Below are positions 8,241-22,458 of a DNA stretch of 64,000 nucleotides, piece after piece (position 1 is the stretch's first letter; each line of letters starts with the position of its first letter). The position numbers were made by a program, and so were the translations under genes. The notes under the pieces are model-generated. The model was not told the origin of the DNA and searched no databases. It saw only the letters and a list, made by a program, of their open reading frames with translations. The DNA is from Bacteroidia bacterium (lineage in GTDB: Bacteria > Bacteroidota > Bacteroidia > M30B66): NCBI GenBank assembly GCA_965279035.1, contig OZ257142.1, positions 896,001 to 960,000 on the forward strand, in the 5' to 3' direction.

Positions 8241-8346
8241 TGTATTCGAATTCGGGCGCTAAAGTACAAGGAATGATGATGTCATTCAAAATTGGATTCT
8301 TTCCCTTTAGAGTATAGGGAAAGCTGGAAGAATGATGAGAAAGAAT

Positions 8347-9213
8347 TTATTTCAAAAAGAATCCGGTTAGGAAAAACACGGCAAACAAAACACTTGCAAC
8401 GCCATTGGTTGTTCCAAAAGCCAAATTCACTCTACTTAAATCATCGTGTTTTACAATGCTGTGTTGGTAAACGAGCAAGGACAGAAAAACGGCTGATCCA
8501 AGCCAATAGAAAAGGCCAAAATTTCCAATCAAACCTGCACCAGCTATGCATAATGCTGTGCAAAAATGCAATGCACTTGAAAGGAGTAAAGCTTTCTTGG
8601 CACCAAGCCAAACGGGAATGCTAAAGAGTTCTTCGGAACGATCAAATTCTTCGTCCTGCAAGGCATAAATCACATCGAAACCGGCTGTCCAAAAAAGTAC
8701 GGCAAACGAAAACATCAATGGGAGAAAAGAGAATTCGCCTGTAACAGCGAGGAATGCACCAATGGGAGCAAGCGATAAACCGAGTCCGAGAACAAGGTGA
8801 CAAAGCCAGGTAAACCGTTTAGTAAGACTGTATCCTAAAATTACGGCAAGTGCAATGGGCGATAAGAAAAAGCAAAGTGGATTGATGAACCAGGTTGTGG
8901 TAACGAATAAAGCCGACATGCTAATAACAAACAATAATGCGGCTTTCGGAGAAATTATTCCAGATGGAATTTCACGTATGGCTGTTCGTGCATTTTTTTC
9001 ATCAAAGCGACGGTCGATGTATCGATTAAAGCCCATAGCAGCGCTGCGAGCGAAGATCATACAAAGAACCACCTTTAAAAATAAAGACCAATCAGGTGAT
9101 GCACCGAGATATTCAACGCCGAGGAAAAAGCCAATTACCGCAAAGGGTAAGGCAAAAACTGTGTGACTAAATTTTACGAGAGAGAAATAATGTTTAATAG
9201 AGATACTGCTCAT
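8347..9213 (-). CDS. UbiA-family polyprenyltransferase (MqnP-like, futalosine pathway)
   Basis: [36 protein letters not shown] and [10 protein letters not shown] are typical of the MqnP/UbiA-like group. Confidence 0.85.
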
Positions 9214-9830
9214 CGTTGCAGAGTTTGTTCAAAAGGAGTTCGGTGCAGAATGGAGCGACCAAGGGTAACTTCATCGGCATATTCGAGTTCATCGCCAACG
9301 GCAACACCACGGGCAAGTGTGCTAATTTTTATTGGAAACTCTTTTAATTTTCGGTAGAGATAAAAATTGGTTGTATCACCTTCCATTGTTGCACTCAACG
9401 CCATGATGATTTCGCGAACTTCACCTTGAGCAACACGCTGAATGAGGCTGTCGATTTCTAAATCCGAAGGTCCAATTCCATCCATTGGAGAAATAATTCC
9501 TCCCATAACATGATATAATCCTCGGTATTGTTGCGTGTTTTCAAGCGCCATCACATCCCGAATGTCTTCTACAACACAGATGGTTTCTTTGTCGCGCCGA
9601 GTGTCAGAACAAATGGAGCAAACAACTGTGTCGGAAACATTGTGGCAACTAGAACAAAAGAGAATATCTGTTCTTAAACGAACAAAGGCATTTGAAAACT
9701 GCTCCACTTCATGTTTTTCTCTACGAAGTAAATGCAAGACCAATCTTAGCGCTGTCTTTTTACCAATTCCAGGAAGCGAAGACATTTCGTTTACGGCATC
9801 TTCGAGTAGTCGAGAAGGGAAACTCTGCAT
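9210..9830 (-). CDS. recR: Recombination mediator RecR
   Basis: LPGIGKKTA HhH, C4 zinc finger, ICVVE toprim, [14 protein letters not shown]. Confidence 0.98.
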
Positions 9831-9837
9831 AGGTTTG

Positions 9838-9845
9838 CAAAGGTA
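9838..9845 (-). promoter_or_regulatory. Bacteroidota -7 promoter element TACCTTTG for recR-ubiA
   Basis: Exact TAnnTTTG match ending 8 nt before the recR ATG. Confidence 0.6.
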
Positions 9846-9933
9846 ACAGAAGCAACGGAGGAAGGTTGAGATTTGGAAGATTTTTCAATGACATACGTCA
9901 AGAAATCAGCATCTTTGAATTCAATCGGGAAAT

Positions 9934-10251
9934 ATGAAAACTACAGGTCGTTACCAATCTTTCAAGGAATTCTACCCATATTATTTAACGGAACATCAGA
10001 ATTTTGCATGCAGAGTGTTACATTTTATTGGAACCTGTTTGTTTTTCGACTTGTTGATTTTAGGTCTATTGATTAAGGATAGCAACCTGTTTCTTCTCAT
10101 GCCCTTTGTAGGATATGGTTTCGCTTGGATTGGACATTTCTTCTTTGAAAAAAATAAACCAGCAACATTTCAGTATCCTCTTTACAGTTTGTTTTCGGAT
10201 TTCAAACTCTTTTTTCAATTGGTTCTAGGAACGCAATCTTTTCGTGCTTAA
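9934..10251 (+). CDS. DUF962 / Mpo1-like small membrane protein
   Basis: FKEFYPYYLTEH, LHFIGT, GYGFAWIGHFFFEKNKPATF. Confidence 0.85.
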   Translation: MKTTGRYQSFKEFYPYYLTEHQNFACRVLHFIGTCLFFDLLILGLLIKDSNLFLLMPFVGYGFAWIGHFFFEKNKPATFQYPLYSLFSDFKLFFQLVLGTQSFRA

Positions 10252-12668: not shown

Positions 12669-13295
12669 TTATTCTACGGTTTCGTAATAATGCTTGCGAA
12701 CCGTTTGTTTTACACCGTGAAGTATGAGTCGGATAAGTAATTCAGTGTCTTTCTCAATGCGTTGATAATCGGGCTCATCATTCATGCTGCGGCGATTATA
12801 AATTACTTCATCATGTTTGATGGCATCGGCCGATGAAATAATTAATTCTGAAACACGCTTCACCATTTCATCACTGAGTTGAGGATCCATCAAGACCAAT
12901 TCACGCGAAACAAAATTGATTTCTCGTTGCAAAATATCATTATACAAGGCATGAAATCCCGGTTGTATTTGACGAACGCTTTCGGCAGAGAGCTGATGCA
13001 GACTTAATACCTTGCGGTAATAACCAAGTCGCTTGCGCATGTATAGTTGAATCTTTTCTTCCGGTTCCTGATGCCCAGCCATTTCAAGTTGCAACTCTTG
13101 AATGATGTTTTCGGCTTCTTGAACCACAACGGCAGTAAAAATCTCTTCCTTGTTTTTGAAATAATAATAAAGGGAAGATTTATTCAAACCAAGACGCTTT
13201 CCAATATCGTCAAGGGTTGTTTTATCAAAGCCGTATTGCGCAAAACAGTTTTTAGCTGCTTGTAAAATCTGGATTTTTTTTTCGGTTGCTTTCAT
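12669..13295 (-). CDS. TetR/AcrR family transcriptional regulator
   Basis: ILQAAKNCFAQYGFDKTTLDDIGKRLGLNKSSLYYYFKNKEEIF; own TACATTTG box at 13310-13317. Confidence 0.95.
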   Translation of the reverse strand: MKATEKKIQILQAAKNCFAQYGFDKTTLDDIGKRLGLNKSSLYYYFKNKEEIFTAVVVQEAENIIQELQLEMAGHQEPEEKIQLYMRKRLGYYRKVLSLHQLSAESVRQIQPGFHALYNDILQREINFVSRELVLMDPQLSDEMVKRVSELIISSADAIKHDEVIYNRRSMNDEPDYQRIEKDTELLIRLILHGVKQTVRKHYYETVE

Positions 13296-13357
13296 GGAAG
13301 AAAAGAAAGCAAATGTATCAAAAGTTCAAACAAGCAAACAGGATGTTTGAAAAGTCC

Positions 13358-13945
13358 TTATTCGGAATGTTCTTGCTCGATGAGTAAGTCTTTCGGACTA
13401 ATAACAGGTTCTTCAATAATAGCCTCTGAATAGGATTTTAAAGAATCTAAACCTGTTTCCATTTCATCACCCAAGAGTTGATTAATCATCAACCCATACA
13501 ATCGCCCCAATGGATAATCCAATTCGCCTTTGCTTGTCCAGGTTACGTTTGTTCCATTTTCGGTGGTATCGAACTTCCAGATATCATCCAATTGCATTTT
13601 AGCTGGACTAGCAATGTTGATTTTATTAACGATTAAAGAAAATGGATTGCATTCGCTGATTGTAATAGTACCATCGCCCATTTCTTCACCCGTAAAATGA
13701 TTTGAATGACCTTGCTGTCCAGCAATACCAGTAAAGCTATTCTTTGAAATCGGATCTTTGATATTCCAAGGTGCCCACTCTTTCCAAGTGCTGAAATCGC
13801 TCACTTGGTTGTATACAGTTTTAGAAGAGGTATTGATTTCAATAGAACGACTAATGGAAAAGGTACTGGGAAGAAATAGTGCAATAGCTAAAACCATTGC
13901 AATAAAGGCAATGATGATAAGTATTGTTTTTTTCAGAATCCGCAT
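13358..13945 (-). CDS. SRPBCC / polyketide-cyclase-like protein with N-terminal membrane anchor
   Basis: LFLPSTFSISRSIEIN, VYNQVSDFSTWKEWAPW, GTNVTWT, GLDSLK; own TATTTTTG box at 13966-13973. Confidence 0.8.
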   Translation of the reverse strand: MRILKKTILIIIAFIAMVLAIALFLPSTFSISRSIEINTSSKTVYNQVSDFSTWKEWAPWNIKDPISKNSFTGIAGQQGHSNHFTGEEMGDGTITISECNPFSLIVNKINIASPAKMQLDDIWKFDTTENGTNVTWTSKGELDYPLGRLYGLMINQLLGDEMETGLDSLKSYSEAIIEEPVISPKDLLIEQEHSE

Positions 13946-14002
13946 AGGCTATCTTGCTTATTCTTCAAAAATAAGAAAAAGACCTTCCGGATTTGGGCTT
14001 TA

Positions 14003-14614
14003 TTATTTGATCAAACTAAGTCCTTCTAATGCAGAGCTATCGTCGGGACGAATTAATAGAGCTTTGGTAAATAGTACTTTAGCTTCACGAGTTCTTCCCA
14101 TTTGAAGATAACTCCATGCATTCATCGTAACACTATCATAATCGAATGGATAAAGATTCATCACTCGTTCGAAATATTTTTGTGCTGTTGGATAATCTTT
14201 ACGACTATAATAAATCATCCCTGTTCTGAAATTAACCAAAGAATTTTGAGCATCTATTTCTAGAACCTTTTTGTACTGAACAATCACTTGATCCCAATTT
14301 CCTAAGCCCGAAGCAGGTAGAACATAGCCTAATTTTGCTTCAATCGAATAGGGTTTTAAGCTGATTGCATTTTGGTAATAGGTCATGCTTTGTGTAAACT
14401 GCCCTGCTTCATAACACAAATAGCCCAAGCGAATATTGATTTCATAGGAATCTTCACGATAAACTTCCTTCATGATCGCTATCGCTTTGGTGAATTCAGA
14501 TTTTGTTTCAAGTGAATAACTTGCTTTGAATGCAGCTATTTCTTTATCGTCGGTTGCCCATGCAGAAAAAGAAAATTGAAGTCCGAAAAGCAGTAGGAGC
14601 AGAGCATTTTTCAT
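14003..14614 (-). CDS. Exported tetratricopeptide repeat protein (last gene of the PqqD/ATP-grasp operon)
   Basis: Signal peptide (FSAWA) then about 5 TPR-like helical repeats (RLGYLCY, YQNAISLKP, YKKVLEID, FERVMNLYP, KALLIRP). Confidence 0.85.
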   Translation of the reverse strand: MKNALLLLLFGLQFSFSAWATDDKEIAAFKASYSLETKSEFTKAIAIMKEVYREDSYEINIRLGYLCYEAGQFTQSMTYYQNAISLKPYSIEAKLGYVLPASGLGNWDQVIVQYKKVLEIDAQNSLVNFRTGMIYYSRKDYPTAQKYFERVMNLYPFDYDSVTMNAWSYLQMGRTREAKVLFTKALLIRPDDSSALEGLSLIK

Positions 14615-14637
14615 TTTGGATTATTATTATGTTGAAA

Positions 14638-16860
14638 TTAAAGTTGATGTTGTTCGTCAATTGAGCGGGCAATAATGCGTTGAGATCCGTTTTTAGCAGA
14701 AATGCGTGTGATCCGGTTATGATTTAACTCGATTTCGAAAACATGTTGACTAAGTCTTTTTCCTCCAACCGAAATATGAATTTGCGATCTCAACACCATG
14801 TGTCTTGGGTTGAAATTATTATCAATATCGGTGTATTCGAGATTAAATTGAACATGCAAAAATTGCCAAAACGGAGCAATAAAATCCTGCATCGTTCGTA
14901 GAATCCCATTGCGCAAGGTATTGAGCGGAAGTTTATCTCGAAGAATAACATCGGGATAATATCCTAACAAAACCTGATAACAACCCAAGTAGAATTGATA
15001 GAGTAGCGATTTTCTATCTCCATGAAAACTCAAAAAATAAAACATCGTCCCATTGTTGAGCAGATAAGCATACGCTCCCGTGTTATGACAATAGATATAG
15101 GCTTGATTGTAAATGTTGACGCGTACTTCCCATTTTACCTCGGTTTTCTTTGATCCTTCTTCGACTTCAAACAATAAAATTTGTCCGGGAATAAATCCAA
15201 ACGCATCTTTGAGTAGTTGGTTGATTTCTACATTCTGAATGTGTTCGTCCTTTTTCGGGATTTCGAAACAGATTAAACGGTGTTGATTCGATTCTTCTCG
15301 CAAATAGTAGCTTACAGGCCAAGAAAGCGTTGGCGAACCTACATATGGAGTTGCCTGTAATTGAAAATGAATATGTGGAACGGGCGATCTACCAGAATTT
15401 CCAAGCGTTGCTAGAATATCTCCTTTTCGAACATAATCACCGAGAGAAACGCGAAAAGATCCCATGTGGAGATGAGAAAGTTGAGAATACAAATATTCCC
15501 CATGCTTAATGACAATGCTGTTTCCCCAGTTATTTTCCAGATTGACTTTGCCAGGTTCATTGTCTTCGATGTTGGCGTGAATATCTACTACGAGTCCATC
15601 GGCGGGCGCCAAAACCGGTTTCTGGAAAGAATAGTAATCTTTTAGTTCGATGCCGTTGTTCTGAAACTCTTCGCCTTCTTCATCTTGAACACTAAAATCG
15701 AGCGCATGTCGCCATTCACTTTTATGTGTGTGATCTCCATCATAGCCTTGAGTAACGGTCCATTTTCCAAAGAAAGGTAATTGAACAAGGATGGCTGTGG
15801 ATTTTCGAAAACGTTCCACACCCGTTGAAAAACTGTACAAATTATTTTCGGGAGAAAAATGCTGAATGCCTGTTAGGTGAAGGAATCGAGGCCAAGTTCT
15901 CATTTTCAATAAATAGAGAAACAGAACCACCATGATGTTAAACGGCATCGAATACAAAGGCAGCTGAACAACAAGCAGCGCAACGGCAAGAGAACTATTC
16001 AATACAGCAATCAAGGGAGTAATGATCATCACCGTGAGGTAAGACCAAGTGCTTGGAATTAGAAAAAAGCCTCCTATCGCAATTGCACTCAAAATAAAAT
16101 TGAATCCAATGTAACTGTATGTCAACTGGTTGATGTCACCACCAACAAAGGAGTAAAACAGATATCCGGTATAAAATCCTAAGAGCGAAAGAGTGAATGC
16201 AATGCGTGAATAAACTATTAAAGCAATTGCCGCAACAACACCTACTATTAGATTGTATTGAAAAAACACTGCACCGAGTGATCTGAAATAAACTCCAAGA
16301 TGCAAGGGTAATTGGTAGTTTTCGATGTTCATCATCAAATCGACAAACTTCTGACCGCCAATACTATACAGCTCATTGTATGCATAAATTCCACGCTCAC
16401 TCAATTCAAGTGCATCGTACGAACGCGCTGCTAATAATATTAGCCAAATGGTGAAAATGAAGGGGAAACTTAGAAATGGAAGTCCTTTCACCGAGAAAGT
16501 ACCATACAACCAAACGGTTAGCAACAAACATAGTAGTGCTGCAAAAAATAATACGGCTAAAAAGGGAAGATTAAACTGATAGTAAACACCTAAGCAAAGT
16601 CCAACGGATAAGCTATTAAAGCTATAAACACCCGTTCGAATAAAGGCATGATTTAATCCGAGAATTCGGGAAGCAATCTGAGTAATCAGCACTGCTACCA
16701 ATCCACTTAAACCAGCATAAAAATCGACAAACGTAACTAGCAGTAAAAGTACAGCCAATGCTTTCTTTTGGGAGAAAAACACTTGGGCATAACTGAGTAG
16801 AACTCCTTCTCCAAAGTCCTTCAAATACGGCAAGTACTTTTTAAAAGGGGCATTCCCCAT
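14638..16860 (-). CDS. Urea-transporter (UT/Yut) fold membrane protein fused to an M23 metallopeptidase domain and an unassigned C-terminal domain
   Basis: UT-like repeats SYAQVFF/SLGAVFF, GVYSFN/YIGFN, PFLSFPF/PLYSMPF; M23 motifs HTH..RHALDF, PVLAPADG, GNSIVIKH, SHL, GNSGRSPVPHIHFQ. Confidence 0.85.
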   Translation of the reverse strand: MGNAPFKKYLPYLKDFGEGVLLSYAQVFFSQKKALAVLLLLVTFVDFYAGLSGLVAVLITQIASRILGLNHAFIRTGVYSFNSLSVGLCLGVYYQFNLPFLAVLFFAALLCLLLTVWLYGTFSVKGLPFLSFPFIFTIWLILLAARSYDALELSERGIYAYNELYSIGGQKFVDLMMNIENYQLPLHLGVYFRSLGAVFFQYNLIVGVVAAIALIVYSRIAFTLSLLGFYTGYLFYSFVGGDINQLTYSYIGFNFILSAIAIGGFFLIPSTWSYLTVMIITPLIAVLNSSLAVALLVVQLPLYSMPFNIMVVLFLYLLKMRTWPRFLHLTGIQHFSPENNLYSFSTGVERFRKSTAILVQLPFFGKWTVTQGYDGDHTHKSEWRHALDFSVQDEEGEEFQNNGIELKDYYSFQKPVLAPADGLVVDIHANIEDNEPGKVNLENNWGNSIVIKHGEYLYSQLSHLHMGSFRVSLGDYVRKGDILATLGNSGRSPVPHIHFQLQATPYVGSPTLSWPVSYYLREESNQHRLICFEIPKKDEHIQNVEINQLLKDAFGFIPGQILLFEVEEGSKKTEVKWEVRVNIYNQAYIYCHNTGAYAYLLNNGTMFYFLSFHGDRKSLLYQFYLGCYQVLLGYYPDVILRDKLPLNTLRNGILRTMQDFIAPFWQFLHVQFNLEYTDIDNNFNPRHMVLRSQIHISVGGKRLSQHVFEIELNHNRITRISAKNGSQRIIARSIDEQHQL

Positions 16861-16867
16861 AAAATGC

Positions 16868-18226
16868 TTAGAGTTTGAACGACTTTAAATGAGCAGGCAT
16901 TTCTTCTTGAGCATTGAGGTCGTCGACCGTTTCTTTCCTTCGGATGATATGCGTTTTGCTATCCATATCAATCAAAACCACATTGGGTCTCATCGCAATG
17001 AATTGCATCCATTGAGTCATATTGTATGCACCAACTGTGTGTATCACCACTTGATCGCCTTTGTTCAATGGTGGCAAAGTTACATTTTCCCTAAGTACAT
17101 CGATGTTCATGCACAGTGGTCCGTAAATCACAGCGTTTTCGGTATGATGTCCGCTGGCTTGTACTGGAGAAATGCGGTGGTCATACCAAAAGGAAGTAAA
17201 CAAAAGATTCACGCCCATATCCATCACCAATGCGCGTCGTCCATCGGAAAGGCGTTTGTTTGCGATAACTGATCCTGCCAAATATCCAGCTTCATCAATC
17301 AGCGCTCTTCCCGATTCAAGAATGAGCATGGGGAGATCTTCTTTTGTAAAACCAGCATTTAACAAGGTTGTGCAAATGGCTTCAGCGTAATCATCAAAGT
17401 TTGGTATCACATCACTTCCCGGAAGAAACGAACCTTTGAGTGTATTTTTAGAAGCGAAACCACCACCTAAATCAACGTATTCGATCGATTTGTTGTGATG
17501 CTTTTTTATTCCTAATGCCAAATCGGCTAGCTTGTTTGCAGCAACAGCGTAGGCATTTGGCGAAAGCATGAATGTTCCAATATGACAATGCAAGCCAACC
17601 AAATCCATTTTATCGGTAAGGATGATTTTATTGATCGCATCCCAAGCTTGACCGTTTTCATAGTTAAATCCAAAACGATCCCACATTGGATAAATGCCTG
17701 TGTCCATATTCACACGAATAGCAACACGTGGGCGTTTTTTGGTTGAATTACAGATTTCGATAATCTGATAGAGTTCATCCAAATGGTCGATGTGAATCAA
17801 TGAATCGTTATCAATCGCTAAACGAAGATCGCTTTCCGTTTTTTCGGGACCATTGAAAATGATATTCTTTCCTTTAACGCCATTTCCAAGAGCTTTTTTG
17901 TATTCGAAAATGGAAACTACTTCTGCCCAAGAACCTTCTTGATGAAAAATATTACAAACAGCATTGATGTAATTCGTCTTGTATGACCAAGCAAATTGAA
18001 CCTTCGGGTAACGAGATGTAAATGCACGACGGGCGTCTCGGTATGTTTGACGAATTTTTCGTTCGGAAATAATGAAAACAGGAGATCCATATTTATCAAT
18101 CATCTCTTTTACCGAAACTCCGTCAATTTGACTTACTGGATCATGTAAAGAACGTGTTCCAAATTTATTGCTTACGCCTCCATTGAGTGAAGTTATAATT
18201 GGGCGTTCGTATCTAAGCTTTGTCAT
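16868..18226 (-). CDS. Fold-type III PLP-dependent decarboxylase (LysA/ODC superfamily), substrate unknown
   Basis: YGSPVFI, SYKTN (PLP lysine), EVVS, FNGP.K, HCHIG, DLGGGF, ESGR, GPLC, GAY. Confidence 0.9.
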   Translation of the reverse strand: MTKLRYERPIITSLNGGVSNKFGTRSLHDPVSQIDGVSVKEMIDKYGSPVFIISERKIRQTYRDARRAFTSRYPKVQFAWSYKTNYINAVCNIFHQEGSWAEVVSIFEYKKALGNGVKGKNIIFNGPEKTESDLRLAIDNDSLIHIDHLDELYQIIEICNSTKKRPRVAIRVNMDTGIYPMWDRFGFNYENGQAWDAINKIILTDKMDLVGLHCHIGTFMLSPNAYAVAANKLADLALGIKKHHNKSIEYVDLGGGFASKNTLKGSFLPGSDVIPNFDDYAEAICTTLLNAGFTKEDLPMLILESGRALIDEAGYLAGSVIANKRLSDGRRALVMDMGVNLLFTSFWYDHRISPVQASGHHTENAVIYGPLCMNIDVLRENVTLPPLNKGDQVVIHTVGAYNMTQWMQFIAMRPNVVLIDMDSKTHIIRRKETVDDLNAQEEMPAHLKSFKL

Positions 18227-18237
18227 TCTAGTTTGTA

Positions 18238-19281
18238 TTAAAGTTCACCAATGGTTGATATTTTCTGAAAGTCGGAGAGCGAAACAATATTGTCCCAAGA
18301 ATAGCGGACAAATAATTTCCCTATATCGTATGTTGTAAAAGGCTCAACATCTTCGCCAAATGCTAATTGCACTGCGGCTGCCGGCATATTTTGTCCACAA
18401 GCAACCGGCAAATAAACCCAAGCAGGAAAGCGCGGATTTATTTCTACGATGTACATTTTTCCTTCTTTGTCTTTGATTAGTTCGAGCTCCATTCCACCGC
18501 GCCATTTGTTGGCAGCAATGAGTGTATGCGTCATTTCGAGTAATTGAGGCTCATCGAGCGTTATGCCTGCCCAAGCTTTTCCCTTATCAGTAATGAATTG
18601 CTTTCTCATGGGAACAGCTCCAATGGTATTTCCTTTTCCATCGCCCAAGGCAGTTACATTGTATTCGTTACCATAAACGAATTGCTGAAAAATGATGGGC
18701 AAACCCCATTTCGCTTGAAGCTTATTGAAATAGGAATACACTTGTTCTTGGTTGTAAGCAATGTAGGCTTCATAGTATTTGCCTTTCACTACTACTGGAA
18801 ATTCAAATTGCTGAAGTACAGATGGAACTTCTGAAATAGAACTTACTGTGATAGAAAGCGGAACGTTCAATCCGTATTTTATTCCAAATTCAGAAAGACG
18901 GTATTTATGTCGTTCCTCAAATTGATCAATGGTAGGAAGGAATGTTTTGATTCCCATTTGATCAAGAACTGGAGCCAGTTTCATGAATGTGAAAAGCTCT
19001 GCATCGAAATTGGGAAAAATAAAATCGAGTTTCTCTTGTTGATGAATGTATTCTAAACGTAGTAAGAGATTGTCTGAACCTTCGGAAGGAAAAGGAACAG
19101 AATAACTTTTATCTACCAAATCGTGCATGTAAAGTCCGGGTTCCAAATGATCGTAGGAAAGTCCAATGATTCGAACATCTTTTCCTTTCCAATCTCTCAA
19201 AGCACGTATAACTGGAATTCCCGGTCCAGGATTATCGGTATTGTTAAGTCCCGAAACTGCAATGGTTAATTGCTCTTTCAT
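18238..19281 (-). CDS. Single-domain ATP-grasp carboxylate-amine ligase
   Basis: FPVVVKG, IFQQFVYGNEY, ELELIKD, IVEINPRF; pre-ATP-grasp domain with IFPNFDAE. Confidence 0.85.
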   Translation of the reverse strand: MKEQLTIAVSGLNNTDNPGPGIPVIRALRDWKGKDVRIIGLSYDHLEPGLYMHDLVDKSYSVPFPSEGSDNLLLRLEYIHQQEKLDFIFPNFDAELFTFMKLAPVLDQMGIKTFLPTIDQFEERHKYRLSEFGIKYGLNVPLSITVSSISEVPSVLQQFEFPVVVKGKYYEAYIAYNQEQVYSYFNKLQAKWGLPIIFQQFVYGNEYNVTALGDGKGNTIGAVPMRKQFITDKGKAWAGITLDEPQLLEMTHTLIAANKWRGGMELELIKDKEGKMYIVEINPRFPAWVYLPVACGQNMPAAAVQLAFGEDVEPFTTYDIGKLFVRYSWDNIVSLSDFQKISTIGEL

Positions 19282-19529
19282 AGTTTTTCGGCTAGTTGTT
19301 GATTGAGAAGAAGTTGAATAAATTCATACAAATCCTTATCAATCGTTTTTTCATCCGTTTCGTATCGATCGACCAAGTTTTTAATGATTTCTTCTTGCGA
19401 GCGATTCTCTTTCAAGAGCTGGATGATTTCAACCCCAATTGGGTTTACTGAATATGAATCACCGGTTCCGGGATCGAAAACGAAACCGCTATCACTTAAT
19501 GCAATGTTGCTTTTTATGCGGATATTCAT
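19278..19529 (-). CDS. Stand-alone PqqD-family protein / RiPP recognition element (RRE)
   Basis: 83 aa with the PqqD pattern: beta strands (GFVFDPGTGDSYSVNPIG), then helices (IIQLL, EEIIKNLVDRYE, IDKDLYEFIQLL). Confidence 0.85.
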   Translation of the reverse strand: MNIRIKSNIALSDSGFVFDPGTGDSYSVNPIGVEIIQLLKENRSQEEIIKNLVDRYETDEKTIDKDLYEFIQLLLNQQLAEKL

Positions 19530-19620
19530 ACAAATAGATTTTTCCCTTTCAGGAGATGAATTTTAAAGAGACCGCAAGACCTAGGGTTTTTAAAGTGGTT
19601 TAATTTCCCAATTTTATTTT

Positions 19621-20496
19621 TTAGGGAATAATTACTTTAAGTGAGGACGGAATCATTGAAAATTGAAGTTCATTCGATTGATTTACAGGTTCTCCATCAA
19701 TATTGACTAAGCCACTTTTTTCACGAATAATTTTTACGGAATTTGAAACGAACGAGACCGTATTTACATGATTATCGATTGTTCCACGAAATAATTTGAT
19801 GGCCAATCCTGGTGCATCTTTCCAAGAACATTGTTTTAAAAGCGTGATGTGAAATAGTCCATCACTTAACATTGCTTTGGGAGCAATAAACGCATTGTTG
19901 CCGAATTGTGGACCATTGCATACAGTCATGAGAAAAGCATCCTGTTCGAATGTTTCTCCATTGATTTCAATCACTAAATGTTCGGGGCGAAACTGATTAA
20001 ACTCTTTTAGGGTGATTTTAGCGTAATTCAATAATCCTCTATTTACCGAATGATGAAACATTCCAGCAACGTGCGCGTCAAAACCAACGCCTGCCAAATT
20101 CATAAATGGAACACCATTCAAAGATCCCGTATCCATGAGAATTAATTTCCCCGATTCAATGATTCGAACGGCTTTTTCAATGTCAAAGGGAATTCCGAGG
20201 CTTCTTGCTAGACCATTGCCCGAACCCATGGGAATGATACCTAATGAAGTATTCGAATGAATGAGTTGTGATCCAATGATATTGATCGTTCCATCACCAC
20301 CAACAGCTATCACCGAATTTATTTTTTCAGCAATGGCTTCCTGTGTTTTTTCGCGTGTTTCTGAAACAGAAGTGCTAAAACATATATCAACATCCAAGTG
20401 AGTTTTGATGCATGCTTTTTCAATCAATGCTGGAATGCGCGTTTTGTTTTTTCCACCCGAAACGGGATTGATTATAAAACGAACACGCTGCTTCAC
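19621..20496 (-). CDS. YegS/DAGK-family lipid kinase
   Basis: IINPVSG, AVGGDGT, IPMGSGNGLARSL, GVGFDA, NGPQFG, IDGE. Confidence 0.93.
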   Translation of the reverse strand: MKQRVRFIINPVSGGKNKTRIPALIEKACIKTHLDVDICFSTSVSETREKTQEAIAEKINSVIAVGGDGTINIIGSQLIHSNTSLGIIPMGSGNGLARSLGIPFDIEKAVRIIESGKLILMDTGSLNGVPFMNLAGVGFDAHVAGMFHHSVNRGLLNYAKITLKEFNQFRPEHLVIEINGETFEQDAFLMTVCNGPQFGNNAFIAPKAMLSDGLFHITLLKQCSWKDAPGLAIKLFRGTIDNHVNTVSFVSNSVKIIREKSGLVNIDGEPVNQSNELQFSMIPSSLKVIIP

Positions 20497-21308
20497 TTCG
20501 ATTCTTTTGCGAATTGTTGACGAATAACTTGAAGTAATTCATCATTCATCAATCCATTACCAGCAAGTAATTCTTTGCCAAACAGATACTCATTTCCACC
20601 CGAATAATCGGAAACTGTACCGCCTGCTTGTTGAACGATGAATGTTCCAGCAGCAACATCCCATGGACTTAATCCATATTCATAAAAAGCTTCGAATCTA
20701 CCGCAGGCAACGTAAGCTAAATCGATAGCTGCTGATCCCAATCGTCTCACTCCGTGTGAGTTTCTAAGTAGATGCATAAACAAACGCATCCATTCTTCCA
20801 ATCGGCCTTCATCCCGGTATGGGAATCCGGTAACGATAAGCGAATCTTTCAACCGATTCCGATTGGAAACACGAATTGGCTTGTTGTTGAGATAGGCATT
20901 TCCGCCTGCAACGGCATGAAAGCATTCATCGTTACTTATTTCATAAACCACCCCAAGAATAACTCGTTCGTTTTGCATCAATGCGATACTGATGCAATAG
21001 AGTGGCAAGCCATGAATAAAATTGGTTGTTCCATCAATAGGATCAATCACCCAGCGAAACTCTTTATTTTCTTGAGCAATGGTATTTTCTTCGGTGATAA
21101 AACCAGATTCGGGAAGTAAAATACTCAACTCACTCACTAGCAGAGTTTCGGCTGCTTTATCGACATAGGTCACGAAATCGTTTAAGCCTTTTGATTCGAT
21201 GCTCGATTCGGTAAGACGTTTTTGTTCCAGTTGAATGAACTTTCCAACTTCACGACTAATGGCGCAAACCTCAGCACACAGGGATTCAAGATCTTCAGGA
21301 AGCGACAT
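20493..21308 (-). CDS. suhB: Inositol monophosphatase family protein
   Basis: DFVTYVD, WVIDPIDGTTNFIHG, RRLGSAAIDL, WDVAAG; ATG at 21308 preferred. Confidence 0.9.
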   Translation of the reverse strand: MSLPEDLESLCAEVCAISREVGKFIQLEQKRLTESSIESKGLNDFVTYVDKAAETLLVSELSILLPESGFITEENTIAQENKEFRWVIDPIDGTTNFIHGLPLYCISIALMQNERVILGVVYEISNDECFHAVAGGNAYLNNKPIRVSNRNRLKDSLIVTGFPYRDEGRLEEWMRLFMHLLRNSHGVRRLGSAAIDLAYVACGRFEAFYEYGLSPWDVAAGTFIVQQAGGTVSDYSGGNEYLFGKELLAGNGLMNDELLQVIRQQFAKESK

Positions 21309-22458
21309 GATGTTGTTTTTTTTCAAGATTGCGTGTATACCAAATTCCAATAACACCCAAAATCATGAGAGTACACGAAATAATTTGCGCTTGAGTAATG
21401 CCTAATCCACCAATGTGATATTGCGTATTAACGCGAATTGATTCAATTAGAAAACGTTCCATTCCGTTCAGAATGAGGTAGATGCTAAACAATAAACCCG
21501 GCGTTGTTATTTTCTTGCGGATGGACCAAAGCACTAAAAACAGAATGATTGCCATGACTGTTTCGTAGAATGATGTTGGGTAAACAGCTTGTGGTAATTC
21601 GTGGCACCAGCGTCCAACACATCCGGGAATGGGAACTCCTTCGTTATTTACGTTATGCGGAAACTTAAACGCCCACATCCAGTCAGGTAGAAAACTCATC
21701 CAATTGGGTTTGGGAGATGAATTCACAATTCCCCAATCTCCATCGCCCGACATCATGCAACCAATTCGACCAATACCGTATGAGAGCATCAAGGCTGGAG
21801 CGGCTGCATCGGTAAGGTGAATGGCGGGTAAACCATTCTTGCGACCATACCGAATAATGAGAATGGCGGCAACGATTAATCCACCATAAAAAGTAAGTCC
21901 TGAAAATGAGAGTAATGCACCTATTGGATCGGCCATGAATTCTGCCGGATTTTCAAGATTGTGAAAGATTTTCGCACCCAATAATCCACCGATCACACCA
22001 AAGAGAATGATATTTCCAACATGATCTTCGGCTTTCATTGGGACAGAAAGCGTTTCTCTTTTGACTTTTTTCTGAGTTTCACTTTCTCTATAGCGCCAGT
22101 AAATCATGGCAGCGGCAATCAACAGTCCGCCAACAAAATTTCCTTTGGTAGATAAAAGTGTTGTTTGAGGATCGTTTACAAATTCACTGTAATTCATTGC
22201 CATATAAAAGGCTTTGAATCCGATGATGAAACCTAGAATACCTGCGATGATATAATCAGAAACCTGAGCTTCTTTCCCCACTTCAAGCATTCTTTTTCCT
22301 GTTTTGAACTGTCCGAGTTTTTCTTTTCTACGGAGCTCAAGCGTTAAAATATAGGCAGCAACGAGGAATGCGATAGCAACGAAAAAACCAAATGTTTGTA
22401 TGGGAAGAGGAAGATCGATTCCGAATGATTTCAGAAGTTCGCTAATGGTTGCGTACAT
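21295..22458 (-). CDS. lgt: Prolipoprotein diacylglyceryl transferase (long Bacteroidota form)
   Basis: GAKIFH, GLTFYGGL, YGIGRIGC, YPTSFYE, ERFLIESIR, TQAQIIS. Confidence 0.88.
   Translation of the reverse strand: MYATISELLKSFGIDLPLPIQTFGFFVAIAFLVAAYILTLELRRKEKLGQFKTGKRMLEVGKEAQVSDYIIAGILGFIIGFKAFYMAMNYSEFVNDPQTTLLSTKGNFVGGLLIAAAMIYWRYRESETQKKVKRETLSVPMKAEDHVGNIILFGVIGGLLGAKIFHNLENPAEFMADPIGALLSFSGLTFYGGLIVAAILIIRYGRKNGLPAIHLTDAAAPALMLSYGIGRIGCMMSGDGDWGIVNSSPKPNWMSFLPDWMWAFKFPHNVNNEGVPIPGCVGRWCHELPQAVYPTSFYETVMAIILFLVLWSIRKKITTPGLLFSIYLILNGMERFLIESIRVNTQYHIGGLGITQAQIISCTLMILGVIGIWYTRNLEKKQHHVAS

What the first reader, a model, noticed from the sequence alone, without database searches (positions are those of the whole stretch)
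14003..19529. Candidate undescribed biosynthetic system: PqqD/RRE + ATP-grasp ligase + PLP decarboxylase + urea-transporter/M23 fusion + exported TPR
Seen: five co-oriented genes with operon-type junctions (4-nt ATGA overlap, then gaps of 11, 7 and 23 nt), sitting among housekeeping genes. The next gene (SRPBCC) has its own TATTTTTG promoter box, which bounds the operon. Established: PqqD/RRE domains present peptide substrates to RiPP enzymes; ATP-grasp enzymes form amide bonds; an ATP-grasp plus a fold-III decarboxylase acting on a protein-tethered amino acid is the logic of butirosin BtrJ/BtrK. Inference: this operon ligates an amino acid or amine to a protein- or peptide-bound intermediate, decarboxylates it, then cleaves and exports the product through the channel-peptidase fusion, with a periplasmic TPR scaffold. 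Possible products are a small amide, a poly-amino-acid or an envelope modification. I know of no characterised pathway with this gene set.
Basis: partly seen in the sequence, partly recalled or inferred. Interest (0 to 1): 0.9.

Follow-up and report, generated by a model that had tools for sequence, protein, structure and literature searches.

The report
Uncharacterised Bacteroidota ligase–decarboxylase–channel operon
This is a real, tightly conserved gene cluster found in many Bacteroidota: three cytoplasmic enzymes-type genes (a peptide-binding helper, an ATP-dependent ligase and a decarboxylase) travel with a membrane channel fused to a peptidase, and no published pathway explains what they make.

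Summary
In 80 related loci the order PqqD–ATP-grasp–decarboxylase–UT/M23–(extra TPR/barrel gene)–TPR recurs while the flanks change. In an even sample of 401 Bacteroidota genomes, the ligase and the channel fusion occur in the same 31 genomes, on the same contig, and in none of the other 370.

New anatomy:
- There are two modules, which lie apart in at least 3 genomes.
- A sixth gene, probably an outer-membrane TPR/barrel protein, is missing from the window.
- An AraC-type regulator and a tandem-repeat operator occur in relatives but not here.
- The M23 domain and a family-specific C-terminal domain are probably cytoplasmic.
- The decarboxylase pocket is invariant and matches neither DAP decarboxylase nor FslC/FigC.
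- No precursor peptide gene lies nearby.

Best reading (0.45): synthesis of a small amide or amine conjugate and its passage through the channel. No paper with this gene set was found in four of the six full-text searches. Function is inferred, not shown.

The parts
19278..19529 (-). PqqD-like / RRE-type small protein (83 aa)
   Evidence: Pfam PqqD 52.5 bits against a cut-off of 23.4. All NCBIfam PqqD-type models score below their cut-offs. Orthologues were found in 53 of 80 related loci; the shortfall is mostly at contig ends. Its stop overlaps the ligase start by 4 nt.
18238..19281 (-). ATP-grasp ligase (347 aa)
   Evidence: Pfam ATPgrasp_Ter and ATP-grasp_3. AF2 model with mean pLDDT 89.4. 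The nearest solved folds are 2pn1 (function unknown), biotin carboxylases, CPS, the L-amino-acid ligases RizA/3vot, PylC and PurK. The 46-sequence alignment has 74 invariant columns, including K166, E280, N282 and R284.
16868..18226 (-). Alanine-racemase-fold (fold III) PLP decarboxylase (452 aa)
   Evidence: Pfam. Best solved relative is 7kh2, N-citrylornithine decarboxylase, at 2.3e-58; then DAPDC 1twi at 1.9e-42 and BtrK at about 1e-29. NCBIfam FslC 235.5 (<500) and lysA 223 (<297.9). The pocket residues K83, F343-T-S-F-W-Y348, C372-M-N-I-D376 and Q405-W-M-Q408 are invariant or nearly so in 59 sequences.
15907..16803 (-). Urea-transporter (UT) channel domain, residues 20-318 of the 740-aa protein
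   Evidence: Pfam UT 184.1 bits. It aligns to the whole dvUT chain, query 14-347 against 15-338 of 340. Two LPxxSxPF-type pore motifs are conserved in 76 sequences.
15346..15777 (-). M23 (LytM) metallopeptidase domain, about residues 362-505, probably cytoplasmic
   Evidence: Pfam M23 53.2 bits. Foldseek finds only M23 domains. H379, D388, H463, H496 and H498 are present in 76 of 76 sequences. No hydrophobic stretch follows residue 320, and 5 K/R fall in the next 40 residues. UT-B has intracellular N- and C-terminal parts (passages in PMC12998343).
14641..15333 (-). Family-specific C-terminal beta-rich domain, residues about 510-740, no known family
   Evidence: AF2 pLDDT is mostly above 90. 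No Pfam match. No Foldseek row attributable to it; rows give no aligned range. No useful Atlas match. A profile search of 1.84 billion representatives gave 538 hits. Judged by length and match position, the 150 listed are proteins of about 660-750 aa with the domain at the C-terminal end, or shorter proteins ending in it (likely fragments, or M23-CTD forms without UT).
14003..14614 (-). Small TPR protein with an N-terminal signal-like segment (203 aa), presumably periplasmic
   Evidence: Pfam TPR families. The N-terminus MKNALLLLLFGLQFSFSAWA was read by eye. An orthologue lies downstream of the channel gene in relatives.
19530..19620 (-). 91-nt region upstream of the PqqD gene; it lacks the tandem-repeat operator seen in relatives
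   Evidence: Sequence. Upstream regions compared. The regex count does not list the window, L001 or L002 among the 17 of 51 loci that carry the repeat.

Best explanation
The five genes are the window's copy of a Bacteroidota-wide system with two modules.

Module 1 is cytoplasmic: PqqD-like protein, ATP-grasp ligase and PLP decarboxylase. I infer that it builds a small amine-bearing amide. The ligase would join a carboxylate to an amine using ATP. One partner would be an alpha-amino acid whose side chain carries the new bond, or a short peptide held by the PqqD-like protein. The FigC-clade decarboxylase would then remove the free alpha-carboxylate of that conjugated amino acid.

Module 2 spans the envelope. 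It comprises an inner-membrane UT-type channel carrying an intact M23 zinc peptidase and an unknown beta-rich domain on its cytoplasmic side, plus a periplasmic TPR protein. In most relatives it also has a TPR protein with a probable outer-membrane barrel. I infer that the M23 domain trims or releases the product at the mouth of the channel and that the small product then crosses through the UT pore.

Shown:
- The genes form one conserved unit.
- The domains are present and their catalytic residues are conserved.
- The decarboxylase pocket differs from the pockets of DAP decarboxylase and FigC.

Inferred: the substrates, the order of steps, the topology and the direction of transport.
For: 1. 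Unit. Among 80 related loci, 41 of the 46 with at least 4.5 kb of upstream flank carry the full PqqD/ligase/decarboxylase triad within 6 kb upstream of the channel gene. 58 of the 60 with at least 2.3 kb of downstream flank carry the extra gene plus TPR directly downstream. The window's flanking genes recur only in the two closest relatives.
2. Co-occurrence. In 401 evenly drawn Bacteroidota genomes, the ligase orthologue (E<=1e-40) occurs in 31. The M23+CTD profile at E<=1e-60 occurs in 31. By my comparison of the two tables these are the same 31 handles, with both genes on the same contig a few kb apart. 370 genomes have neither.
3. Two modules. Five loci have the channel module without the triad beside it. 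In 3 of those 5 genomes the triad is a separate three-gene operon elsewhere.
4. Decarboxylase. The closest solved relative is FigC. The FigC paper places FigC, SbnH, AcsE, MccE and BtrK, all acting on conjugated amino acids, in one clade with DAPDC (sections read). Here the only Arg on the DAPDC specificity helix is Thr344, and the acidic residue after the catalytic Cys is Met373. FigC's citrate-facing H357, R387 and N389 are Ile375, Gln405 and Met407, and T330 is Trp347. All are conserved in 56-59 of 59 sequences.
5. Ligase. The fold is confident and nearest to L-amino-acid ligases, PylC, carboxylases and 2pn1.
6. Peptidase. All five M23 metal and catalytic residues are present in 76 of 76 sequences.
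7. Topology. The UT fold is complete and no later hydrophobic segment exists. The termini are K/R-rich and the central loop is acidic. UT-B termini are intracellular.
8. The 4-nt overlap between the PqqD-like gene and the ligase gene suggests coupled translation.
9. The extra gene in relatives resembles TPR+YaiO outer-membrane barrels in the ESM Atlas: feature score 0.98, TM 0.6-0.7. This is a lead only.
Against: - No conserved small ORF, and so no candidate precursor peptide, lies upstream of the PqqD gene (290 small ORFs compared) or anywhere within 2.5 kb of the clusters (3947 small ORFs compared). The peptide-binding role of the PqqD-like protein therefore has no visible client.
- The ligase's nearest folds act on small molecules or bicarbonate, not on peptides.
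- A UT pore is narrow (recalled knowledge), which limits the product to something very small. Nothing shows that the flow is outward.
- An AraC-type regulator with a tandem operator is at least as typical of substrate-induced uptake and catabolism as of biosynthesis.
- The window lacks the outer-membrane partner, and the two nearest relatives' partial genomes show none.
- Pfam does not recognise a YaiO barrel in any of 28 members of that family.
- In 3 of 4 genomes checked, no other lysA-like gene passes the lysA cut-off. A lysine-related role is therefore not formally excluded.
- There are no expression, metabolite or biochemical data.
Confidence: 0.45

Rival explanations
1. Uptake and assimilation. 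The outer-membrane barrel, TPR proteins and UT channel bring in a small urea- or amide-like compound. The cytoplasmic M23/CTD, ligase and decarboxylase then process it, under substrate control by the AraC-type regulator.
For: UT family membership is strong (184 bits) and both pore motifs are conserved. An AraC-family regulator lies directly upstream in 21 loci. A tandem direct repeat occurs upstream of the PqqD gene in 17 of 51 loci, against 13 of 2058 control windows. That layout is common for substrate-induced operons (general knowledge).
Against: An ATP-spending ligase plus a PqqD-like protein has no precedent that I know of in catabolism of urea-like compounds. No urease, amidase, allophanate hydrolase or similar gene is among the conserved or accessory families. 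The urea-transporter equivalog model is far below its cut-off (96.8 against 274.6).
Confidence: 0.2
2. Envelope or peptidoglycan-peptide remodelling. The decarboxylase acts on the free D-centre of a meso-DAP residue in a stem peptide or recycling product. The ligase adds or re-ligates an amino acid, and M23 cuts the peptide. The system would change or recycle wall peptides.
For: M23 domains are classically peptidoglycan peptidases. The decarboxylase is a relative of DAPDC (1.9e-42). Some loci carry an Acyl_transf_3 membrane acyltransferase in or beside the cluster. In 3 of 4 genomes checked, the cluster decarboxylase is the best lysA-like match.
Against: The M23 domain is predicted to be on the cytoplasmic side. 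The DAP-carboxylate-binding Arg and the acidic residue after the catalytic Cys are replaced in 59 of 59 sequences. No Mur ligase, transpeptidase or amidase gene is conserved nearby. A UT pore could not pass muropeptides (recalled knowledge).
Confidence: 0.12
3. A classical RiPP. A ribosomal precursor encoded elsewhere in the genome is bound by the PqqD-like RRE, modified by the ligase and the decarboxylase, cut from its leader by M23, and exported as a sizeable modified peptide.
For: PqqD/RRE domains are the hallmark leader-binding element of many RiPP pathways (Pfam match; role from general knowledge). A protease fused to the membrane protein recalls peptidase-containing exporters.
Against: No precursor candidate was found in 80 loci. 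The ligase is not of the graspetide type by Pfam/NCBIfam, and microviridin-type ligases are not among the listed nearest folds. A fold III decarboxylase needs a free alpha-amino acid (general knowledge), which a peptide offers only on a side-chain-linked residue. The exporter is a narrow channel, not an ABC or MFS pump.
Confidence: 0.08
4. Unrelated neighbours. The decarboxylase is simply the housekeeping LysA, the UT protein is a plain urea channel, and the adjacency has no functional meaning.
For: The cluster sits among housekeeping genes in the window. The lysA model gives 223 bits.
Against: Gene order is conserved with changing flanks. The ligase and the channel fusion co-occur in 31 and 31 of 401 genomes, the same genomes. 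One genome holds a true lysA (399.6 bits) in addition to the cluster decarboxylase (219.6 bits). The pocket is not of DAPDC type.
Confidence: 0.02

Closest known systems
Rhizoferrin pathway of Francisella: FslA/FigA (NIS synthetase) + FslC/FigC (N-citrylornithine decarboxylase)
   Same: An amide-forming ligase makes a side-chain conjugate of an amino acid, and a fold III PLP decarboxylase then removes the alpha-carboxylate. FigC is the closest solved relative of the window's decarboxylase (2.3e-58). Both share Met after the catalytic Cys and Thr on the specificity helix.
   Different: The ligase here is an ATP-grasp enzyme, not an IucA/IucC NIS synthetase. FigC's citrate-facing residues are replaced by Ile, Gln, Met and Trp. 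The NCBIfam FslC model scores 235.5 against a cut-off of 500. FigB is an MFS exporter (PMC7857480), not a UT/M23 fusion. That pathway has no PqqD-like protein.
Butirosin side-chain pathway BtrI/BtrJ/BtrK
   Same: An ATP-grasp ligase is paired with a fold III decarboxylase that acts on a tethered glutamate. BtrK is a homologue (about 1e-29).
   Different: No acyl carrier protein is present. The PqqD-like protein has no conserved acceptor residue at its C-terminus. Similarity of the ligase to BtrJ was not tested.
PQQ biosynthesis (PqqA peptide, PqqD chaperone, PqqE, PqqF/G peptidase)
   Same: A PqqD-type peptide chaperone and a zinc peptidase sit in one cluster, and the end product is a small molecule cut out of a peptide. 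This pathway outline is recalled knowledge.
   Different: There is no PqqA-like gene, no radical SAM enzyme, and the peptidase is M23 rather than M16. The NCBIfam PQQ_PqqD model scores 27.8 against a cut-off of 46.
Peptidase-containing exporters (C39 peptidase-ABC transporters of bacteriocins)
   Same: A cytoplasmic peptidase domain is fused to the membrane protein through which the product leaves. This is an analogy from general knowledge.
   Different: The peptidase family differs (M23 against C39), as does the membrane part (a passive UT-type channel against an ATP-driven pump). The pore is far too narrow for a peptide.
TPR + outer-membrane barrel export partners (PgaA, BcsC, AlgK/AlgE) and YaiO-family barrels
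   Same: Relatives encode a TPR/probable barrel protein and a second TPR protein right after the inner-membrane component.
   Different: There is no glycosyltransferase synthase. Barrel identity rests on Atlas look-alikes only, and Pfam YaiO matched 0 of 28 members. This gene is absent from the window.
UT-M23 domain architecture noted in a 2026 survey of urea transporters (PMC12998343)
   Same: It is the same fusion: a UT domain followed by an M23 peptidase in bacteria (passage read).
   Different: In the passages I read, the paper reports only the architecture, with no gene neighbourhood, no function and no mention of the C-terminal domain. Its supplementary table was not seen.

Membership tests
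RiPP biosynthetic gene cluster | A gene for a precursor peptide in or beside the cluster | tested here: not met
   No conserved small ORF was found upstream of the PqqD gene or within 2.5 kb of the core genes in 80 loci plus the window. Peptides shorter than 18 aa, or encoded elsewhere, are not excluded.
RiPP biosynthetic gene cluster | RRE / PqqD-like leader-binding domain | tested here: met
   Pfam PqqD 52.5 bits against a cut-off of 23.4. Peptide binding itself was not tested.
Graspetides (microviridin-type ATP-grasp macrocyclases) | ATP-grasp enzyme of the MdnB/MdnC type | tested here: not met
   Pfam and NCBIfam give CPS-like, Ter-type and ATP-grasp_3 matches only. The listed nearest folds are 2pn1, carboxylases, L-amino-acid ligases and PylC.
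Diaminopimelate decarboxylase (LysA) | Score over the TIGR01048 cut-off | tested here: not met
   223 bits against 297.9. Genome G003 has a separate true lysA at 399.6 bits.
Diaminopimelate decarboxylase (LysA) | Arg on the specificity helix that binds the distal carboxylate, and an acidic residue after the catalytic Cys | tested here: not met
   These positions are Thr344 and Met373 in 59 of 59 sequences. The roles come from PMC7857480 section 8. Equating the paper's R343 with the only Arg on the aligned 1twi segment is my inference.
N-citrylornithine decarboxylase FslC/FigC | NCBIfam NF041039 cut-off, and the citrate-facing residues H357, R387 and N389 | tested here: not met
   235.5 bits against 500. 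The aligned residues are Ile375, Gln405 and Met407.
NIS siderophore pathway | IucA/IucC-type NIS synthetase in the cluster | tested here: not met
   None appears among the conserved or accessory gene families.
Butirosin BtrI/J/K-type tethered pathway | Acyl carrier protein that holds the intermediate | tested here: not met
   No ACP is among the conserved families. The PqqD-like tails are variable.
Urea transporter family (Pfam UT) | Complete UT fold with the two pore motifs | tested here: met
   184.1 bits. It aligns over the whole dvUT chain. LPxLSxPF and LPxYSLPF are conserved; the canonical motif is recalled, not from a call.
Urea transporter family (Pfam UT) | Urea as the transported substrate (equivalog TIGR03441) | tested here: not met
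   96.8 bits against 274.6. The substrate is not testable with these tools.
Peptidase M23 (LytM) | Zinc ligands and catalytic histidines | tested here: met
   H379, D388, H463, H496 and H498 occur in 76 of 76 sequences. Foldseek finds M23 domains. The spacing of the first His and Asp is unusual: H379 to D388, with H385 present in only 53 of 76.
Peptidase M23 (LytM) | Extracytoplasmic location, acting on peptidoglycan | tested here: inconclusive
   Sequence-based topology points to the cytoplasm. There is no experimental topology.
Synthase-dependent exopolysaccharide secretion | Inner-membrane glycosyltransferase synthase together with a TPR/barrel exporter | tested here: not met
   No conserved glycosyltransferase. 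A GT4 gene lies beside one locus only.
Known anti-phage defence systems | Match to a PADLOC model | tested here: not met
   0 families for 6 proteins.

The most novel reading that the evidence does not exclude
Bacteroidota possess a dedicated trans-envelope route for a new peptide- or amino-acid-derived small metabolite. The route would consist of a UT-type channel with a cytoplasmic M23 peptidase and a private C-terminal domain, a periplasmic TPR protein and a TPR/outer-membrane barrel. The metabolite would be made by an RRE-assisted ATP-grasp ligase and a conjugate-specific decarboxylase. That would be PQQ-like 'cut a small molecule out of a peptide' logic with chemistry and export machinery not seen before. 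The product could be a signal, a metal-binding amide or an envelope-active amine.
Probability: 0.2. Interest if true: 0.85.

Novelty: new variant of a known kind. Interest (0 to 1): 0.65.

Why it matters
The system is common. It occurs in 31 of 401 evenly sampled Bacteroidota genomes. Named homologues come from Flavobacteriales, Bacteroidales, Chitinophagales/Saprospiraceae and Cytophagales. No function is known for any part of it.

Several features would each be new:
- A use of the urea-transporter fold outside urea handling.
- A cytoplasmic M23 peptidase.
- A PqqD-like protein working with an ATP-grasp ligase.
- A new substrate class for the FigC/SbnH/BtrK decarboxylase clade.

The invariant, rather apolar decarboxylase pocket and the perfect co-occurrence of the two modules make the problem directly testable with a knock-out plus metabolomics, or with three purified proteins.

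Tried and rejected
- Precursor peptide search. Small ORFs of 12-75 aa within 700 nt upstream of the PqqD gene (290 ORFs), and ORFs of 18-69 aa within 2.5 kb of the core genes (3947 ORFs), were compared across loci. All recurrent families were shadows of the AraC gene or of other real genes. Nothing was found.
- RNA elements. An Rfam scan of 13000-21000 gave one chance-level snoRNA match (E 0.27).
- Sigma-70 promoter and terminator scan. Counts were at or below the shuffled expectation, and the scan is not suited to Bacteroidota promoters.
- Complex prediction of the PqqD-like protein with the ligase: no support (score 0.01, mark 0.32). This is no verdict either way.
- Expression: no RNA holder listed. 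Co-transcription could not be examined, and read laying was not used.
- Fold of the C-terminal domain. Foldseek returned only M23 matches. Both VIA-align libraries were not on the machine. The Atlas gave scores of 0.80 or less.
- Barrel identity of the extra gene. Pfam YaiO matched 0 of 28 members, so the barrel rests on Atlas look-alikes alone.
- Extra gene in the window lineage. It was not found in the window or in the two nearest relatives' partial genomes of 2.5 and 2.2 Mb. Absence from the organism is not shown, because no whole genome is held.
- Defence-system reading: no PADLOC match.
- Metal link. This was considered because of the HMA-like N-terminus of the AraC regulator, DUF2202 in 5 loci and CDF transporters in 1 locus. 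The HMA motif is degenerate, usually with a single Cys, so I did not build on it.
- LysW/LysX-type carrier reading. Rejected because the PqqD-like C-termini are not conserved.
- Taxon names for divergent members by the listing of cluster members: not available.
- Supplementary tables of PMC12998343 and PMC7857480 were not seen. They may list UT-M23 proteins or decarboxylase homologues.

Full report
**Observation**

The window carries five co-oriented minus-strand ORFs at exactly the stated coordinates. The stop of the first overlaps the start of the second by 4 nt, read as ATGA. The following gaps are 11, 7 and 23 nt.

Pfam confirms all the domains above their curated cut-offs: PqqD, ATP-grasp, the two halves of a fold III (alanine-racemase-fold) PLP decarboxylase, a urea-transporter (UT) domain followed by Peptidase_M23, and TPR repeats. 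No NCBIfam model reaches its cut-off for any of the five proteins, so none of them is an equivalog of a named enzyme.

The TATTTTTG box before the SRPBCC gene is present at 13966-13973. GC content is like that of the surroundings.

**Is it a unit?**

A profile of the UT/M23 protein found 582 relatives in species-representative genomes, and 80 loci were fetched. tblastn and ORF clustering gave six families in a fixed order: PqqD-like, ligase, decarboxylase, UT/M23, an extra 380-500-aa gene, and TPR.

Counts by available flank:
- 41 of the 46 loci with at least 4.5 kb upstream of the channel gene have the whole triad within 6 kb. The other 5 have none of it there.
- 58 of the 60 loci with at least 2.3 kb downstream have the extra gene plus TPR directly downstream. 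In L021 the TPR gene lies before the channel gene. In L061 the extra gene lies upstream.

The window's own flanking genes (lipid kinase, IMPase, Lgt) recur only in the two closest relatives.

For the 5 loci without an adjacent triad I searched the whole genomes. In 3 of the 5, the triad is a separate three-gene operon elsewhere. The other two are metagenome bins of 1.9 and 3.7 Mb in which it was not found.

I then searched an even sample of 401 Bacteroidota genomes twice:
- The M23+CTD profile gave 49 genomes at E<=1e-20. Of these, 31 have E<=1e-60, and 18 match only the generic M23 part.
- The ligase profile gave 31 genomes at E<=1e-40.

By my comparison of the two tables these are the same 31 handles, with both genes on the same contig a few kb apart. 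Related genomes share genes, so this is not 31 independent events. Even so, there is not one exception among 401.

All homologues that carry a name are Bacteroidota: Flavobacteriales, Bacteroidales, Chitinophagales, Saprospiraceae, Lewinellaceae, Aureispira and Cyclobacteriaceae. A few bins have odd labels. Spread beyond the phylum was not shown.

*Extra gene.* The gene between the channel gene and the TPR gene in relatives has a signal-like N-terminus, one or two weak TPR matches and a long aromatic-rich C-terminal part. The ESM Atlas places it next to TPR+YaiO outer-membrane barrel clusters, with feature scores of 0.98 and TM 0.6-0.7. Pfam's YaiO model matches 0 of 28 members, so this is a lead only. 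The gene is absent from the 64-kb window.

*Regulator and operator.* 21 loci have an AraC-family regulator with a degenerate HMA-like N-terminus directly upstream. Many loci carry a tandem direct repeat, roughly TRTAAC-type units 21 bp apart, 70-140 nt before the PqqD gene. A strict pattern finds it in 17 of 51 loci against 13 of 2058 control windows. The window and its two closest relatives have neither the regulator nor the repeat.

*Accessory genes.* They sit mostly at the junction between the two modules:
- an IF-2B/MtnA-like protein (4 loci)
- DUF302 (3 loci)
- an Acyl_transf_3 protein
- DUF2202 (5 loci)
- a small secreted protein with a type IX secretion C-terminal domain (10 loci)

*The 740-aa protein has three parts:*
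- The UT part aligns over the whole Desulfovibrio UT chain and keeps both pore motifs.
- The M23 part keeps H379, D388, H463, H496 and H498 in 76 of 76 sequences and folds as an M23 domain.
- The last 230 residues or so form a confident beta-rich domain with no family. A profile of it finds 538 representatives among 1.84 billion proteins. Judged by length and match position, the 150 listed are proteins of about 660-750 aa with the domain at the end, or shorter ones ending in it.

*Topology.* After residue 320 there is no hydrophobic segment. The N-terminus and the segment after the last helix are K/R-rich, and the central loop is acidic. In human UT-B both terminal parts are intracellular (passages in PMC12998343). 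I therefore infer that M23 and the C-terminal domain face the cytoplasm, which is unusual for M23. In one genome the UT part and the M23-CTD part are separate overlapping ORFs. This is either a natural split or a frameshift.

**The enzymes**

*Decarboxylase.* Its closest solved relative is FigC/FslC, the N-citrylornithine decarboxylase (2.3e-58). Next come an archaeal DAP decarboxylase (1.9e-42) and BtrK.

The FigC paper (abstract, sections 8, 9 and 14, and passages) places FigC, SbnH, AcsE, MccE and BtrK in one clade with DAPDC. All of them act on amino acids that carry a larger group. It names the specificity helix and the loop after the catalytic Cys as the determinants of specificity.

I mapped the residues through the HMMER alignments. 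The paper's numbering equals the chain index minus 19; I checked this at K63, T327/T330/Y331, C354/M355/H357 and R387/N389. I then counted the aligned positions in 59 family members:

| Reference residue | Here |
|---|---|
| PLP lysine (FigC K63) | K83 |
| only Arg on the DAPDC helix segment | T344 |
| FigC T330 | W347 |
| acidic residue after the catalytic Cys in DAPDC | M373, as in FigC |
| FigC H357 | I375 |
| FigC R387 | Q405 |
| FigC N389 | M407 |

All are conserved in 56-59 of 59 sequences. The enzyme is thus neither a DAP decarboxylase nor a citryl-ornithine decarboxylase. Its pocket is fixed and rather apolar or aromatic, which suggests an uncharged distal group.

In 1 of 4 genomes checked, a true lysA (399.6 bits) exists beside the cluster enzyme. 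In the other three, no other gene passes the lysA cut-off. I cannot explain this, and I list it against my reading.

*Ligase.* It gives a confident model (pLDDT 89.4). Its nearest solved folds are 2pn1 (unknown function), biotin carboxylases, carbamoyl-phosphate synthetase, the L-amino-acid ligases RizA and 3vot, PylC and PurK (profile search). Enzymes that modify peptides are not among the listed top hits. The E-x-N-x-R segment (E280, N282, R284) and K166 are invariant. Their roles in ATP and Mg binding are recalled knowledge.

*PqqD-like protein.* It has the usual strand-rich N-terminal half and helical C-terminal half. Its C-terminal tail is variable and often acidic, and in the window it is truncated. 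That argues against a LysW-type carrier.

**Mechanism**

I commit to the following, at 0.45. The triad makes a small conjugate: the ligase forms an amide, and the decarboxylase removes the alpha-carboxylate of the conjugated amino acid, as in the FigA/FigC, SbnH and BtrJ/BtrK logic. The M23 domain at the cytoplasmic mouth of the channel trims or releases the conjugate. The small product then crosses the inner membrane through the UT pore, helped across the periplasm and outer membrane by the TPR protein and, in most species, the TPR/barrel protein.

The unit, the domains, the residue conservation and the pocket differences are shown. The substrates, the order of steps, the topology and the direction of flow are inferred.

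The main weaknesses are these:
- The PqqD-like protein has no visible peptide client.
- The ligase has a small-molecule-type fold.
- The direction of flow is unknown.

The rivals are uptake/assimilation (0.2), wall-peptide remodelling (0.12), a classical RiPP with a distant precursor (0.08) and chance neighbours (0.02).

**Comparison with what is known**

The system works most like the ligase-then-decarboxylase pairs of NIS siderophores and butirosin, and it shares the chaperone-plus-peptidase idea with PQQ synthesis. It fails the defining features of each where I could test them:
- no NIS synthetase
- no ACP
- no PqqA and no radical SAM enzyme
- no graspetide-type ligase
- not LysA and not FslC

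The UT-M23 fusion has been mentioned in print only as a domain architecture (PMC12998343, passage read). Four full-text searches for combinations of PqqD, ATP-grasp, decarboxylase, urea transporter, M23, RRE and Bacteroidetes returned no paper describing this gene set. A fifth returned only that architecture paper. The sixth was the look-up of the FigC paper. These searches cover open-access papers and preprints only.

**Verdict**

The cluster is a genuine, widespread and uncharacterised system with an unusual envelope module. I rate it as a new variant of a known kind (a ligase/decarboxylase biosynthetic cluster with its own transport module), with interest 0.65. There is a 0.2 chance that it is a wholly new peptide-derived-metabolite and export system.

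Noticed in passing
L004:7180-7260, and the equivalent places upstream of the PqqD gene in L031, L042, L051, L064, L079 and others: A tandem direct repeat of a TRTAAC-type unit, about 21 bp start to start, lies 70-140 nt before the PqqD gene. A strict pattern finds it in 17 of 51 loci against 13 of 2058 control windows. It is probably the operator of the AraC-type regulator. It is absent from the window and from L001/L002.
   Followed up: partly
L004:6537-7142 and 20 further loci: An AraC-family regulator with an N-terminal HMA-like domain sits directly upstream of the cluster. In most members the metal motif is reduced to a single conserved Cys (NM-V-S-x-x-C).
   Followed up: partly
L012:5177-6016, L069:7933-8583, L080:1372-2157 and 7 further loci: A small conserved secreted protein (about 170-aa beta-rich domain plus a type IX secretion C-terminal sorting domain) rides with the cluster in 10 loci. 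In two of them it lies between the ligase and the decarboxylase genes.
   Followed up: partly
L086:10430-12600: A CRISPR-like array, seen as many copies of one repeat in the small-ORF listing, lies next to a cas2-like 111-aa ORF directly after the detached triad in genome G005.
   Followed up: no
L089:7944-10198: In genome G026 the UT part (7944-9020) and the M23+C-terminal part (9017-10198) are two ORFs overlapping by 4 nt. This is either a natural split or a frameshift.
   Followed up: no
G001, G002, G004 (genomes of L025, L070, L066): Apart from the cluster decarboxylase, no gene comes near the lysA (TIGR01048) cut-off, and two of these genomes are complete chromosomes. Either lysine synthesis differs there or the model misses their LysA.
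   Followed up: no
window 21295-22458 (minus strand): The Lgt ORF is 387 aa, but the Pfam LGT match starts at residue 112. The ORF also overlaps the next gene downstream (20493-21356) by 62 nt. The start of one or both ORFs may lie further in, or Lgt has an N-terminal extension.
   Followed up: no
G347:C1:14-4962 and C1:3731290-3736378: The cluster appears twice with identical scores at the two ends of one contig. This looks like an overlap of the ends of a circular assembly rather than a real duplication.
   Followed up: no
L036, L043, L058, L066 (between the decarboxylase and channel genes): An IF-2B/MtnA-like (sugar-phosphate isomerase family) gene is inserted at the junction of the two modules in four Bacteroidales loci. 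DUF302 takes the same place in three others.
   Followed up: partly
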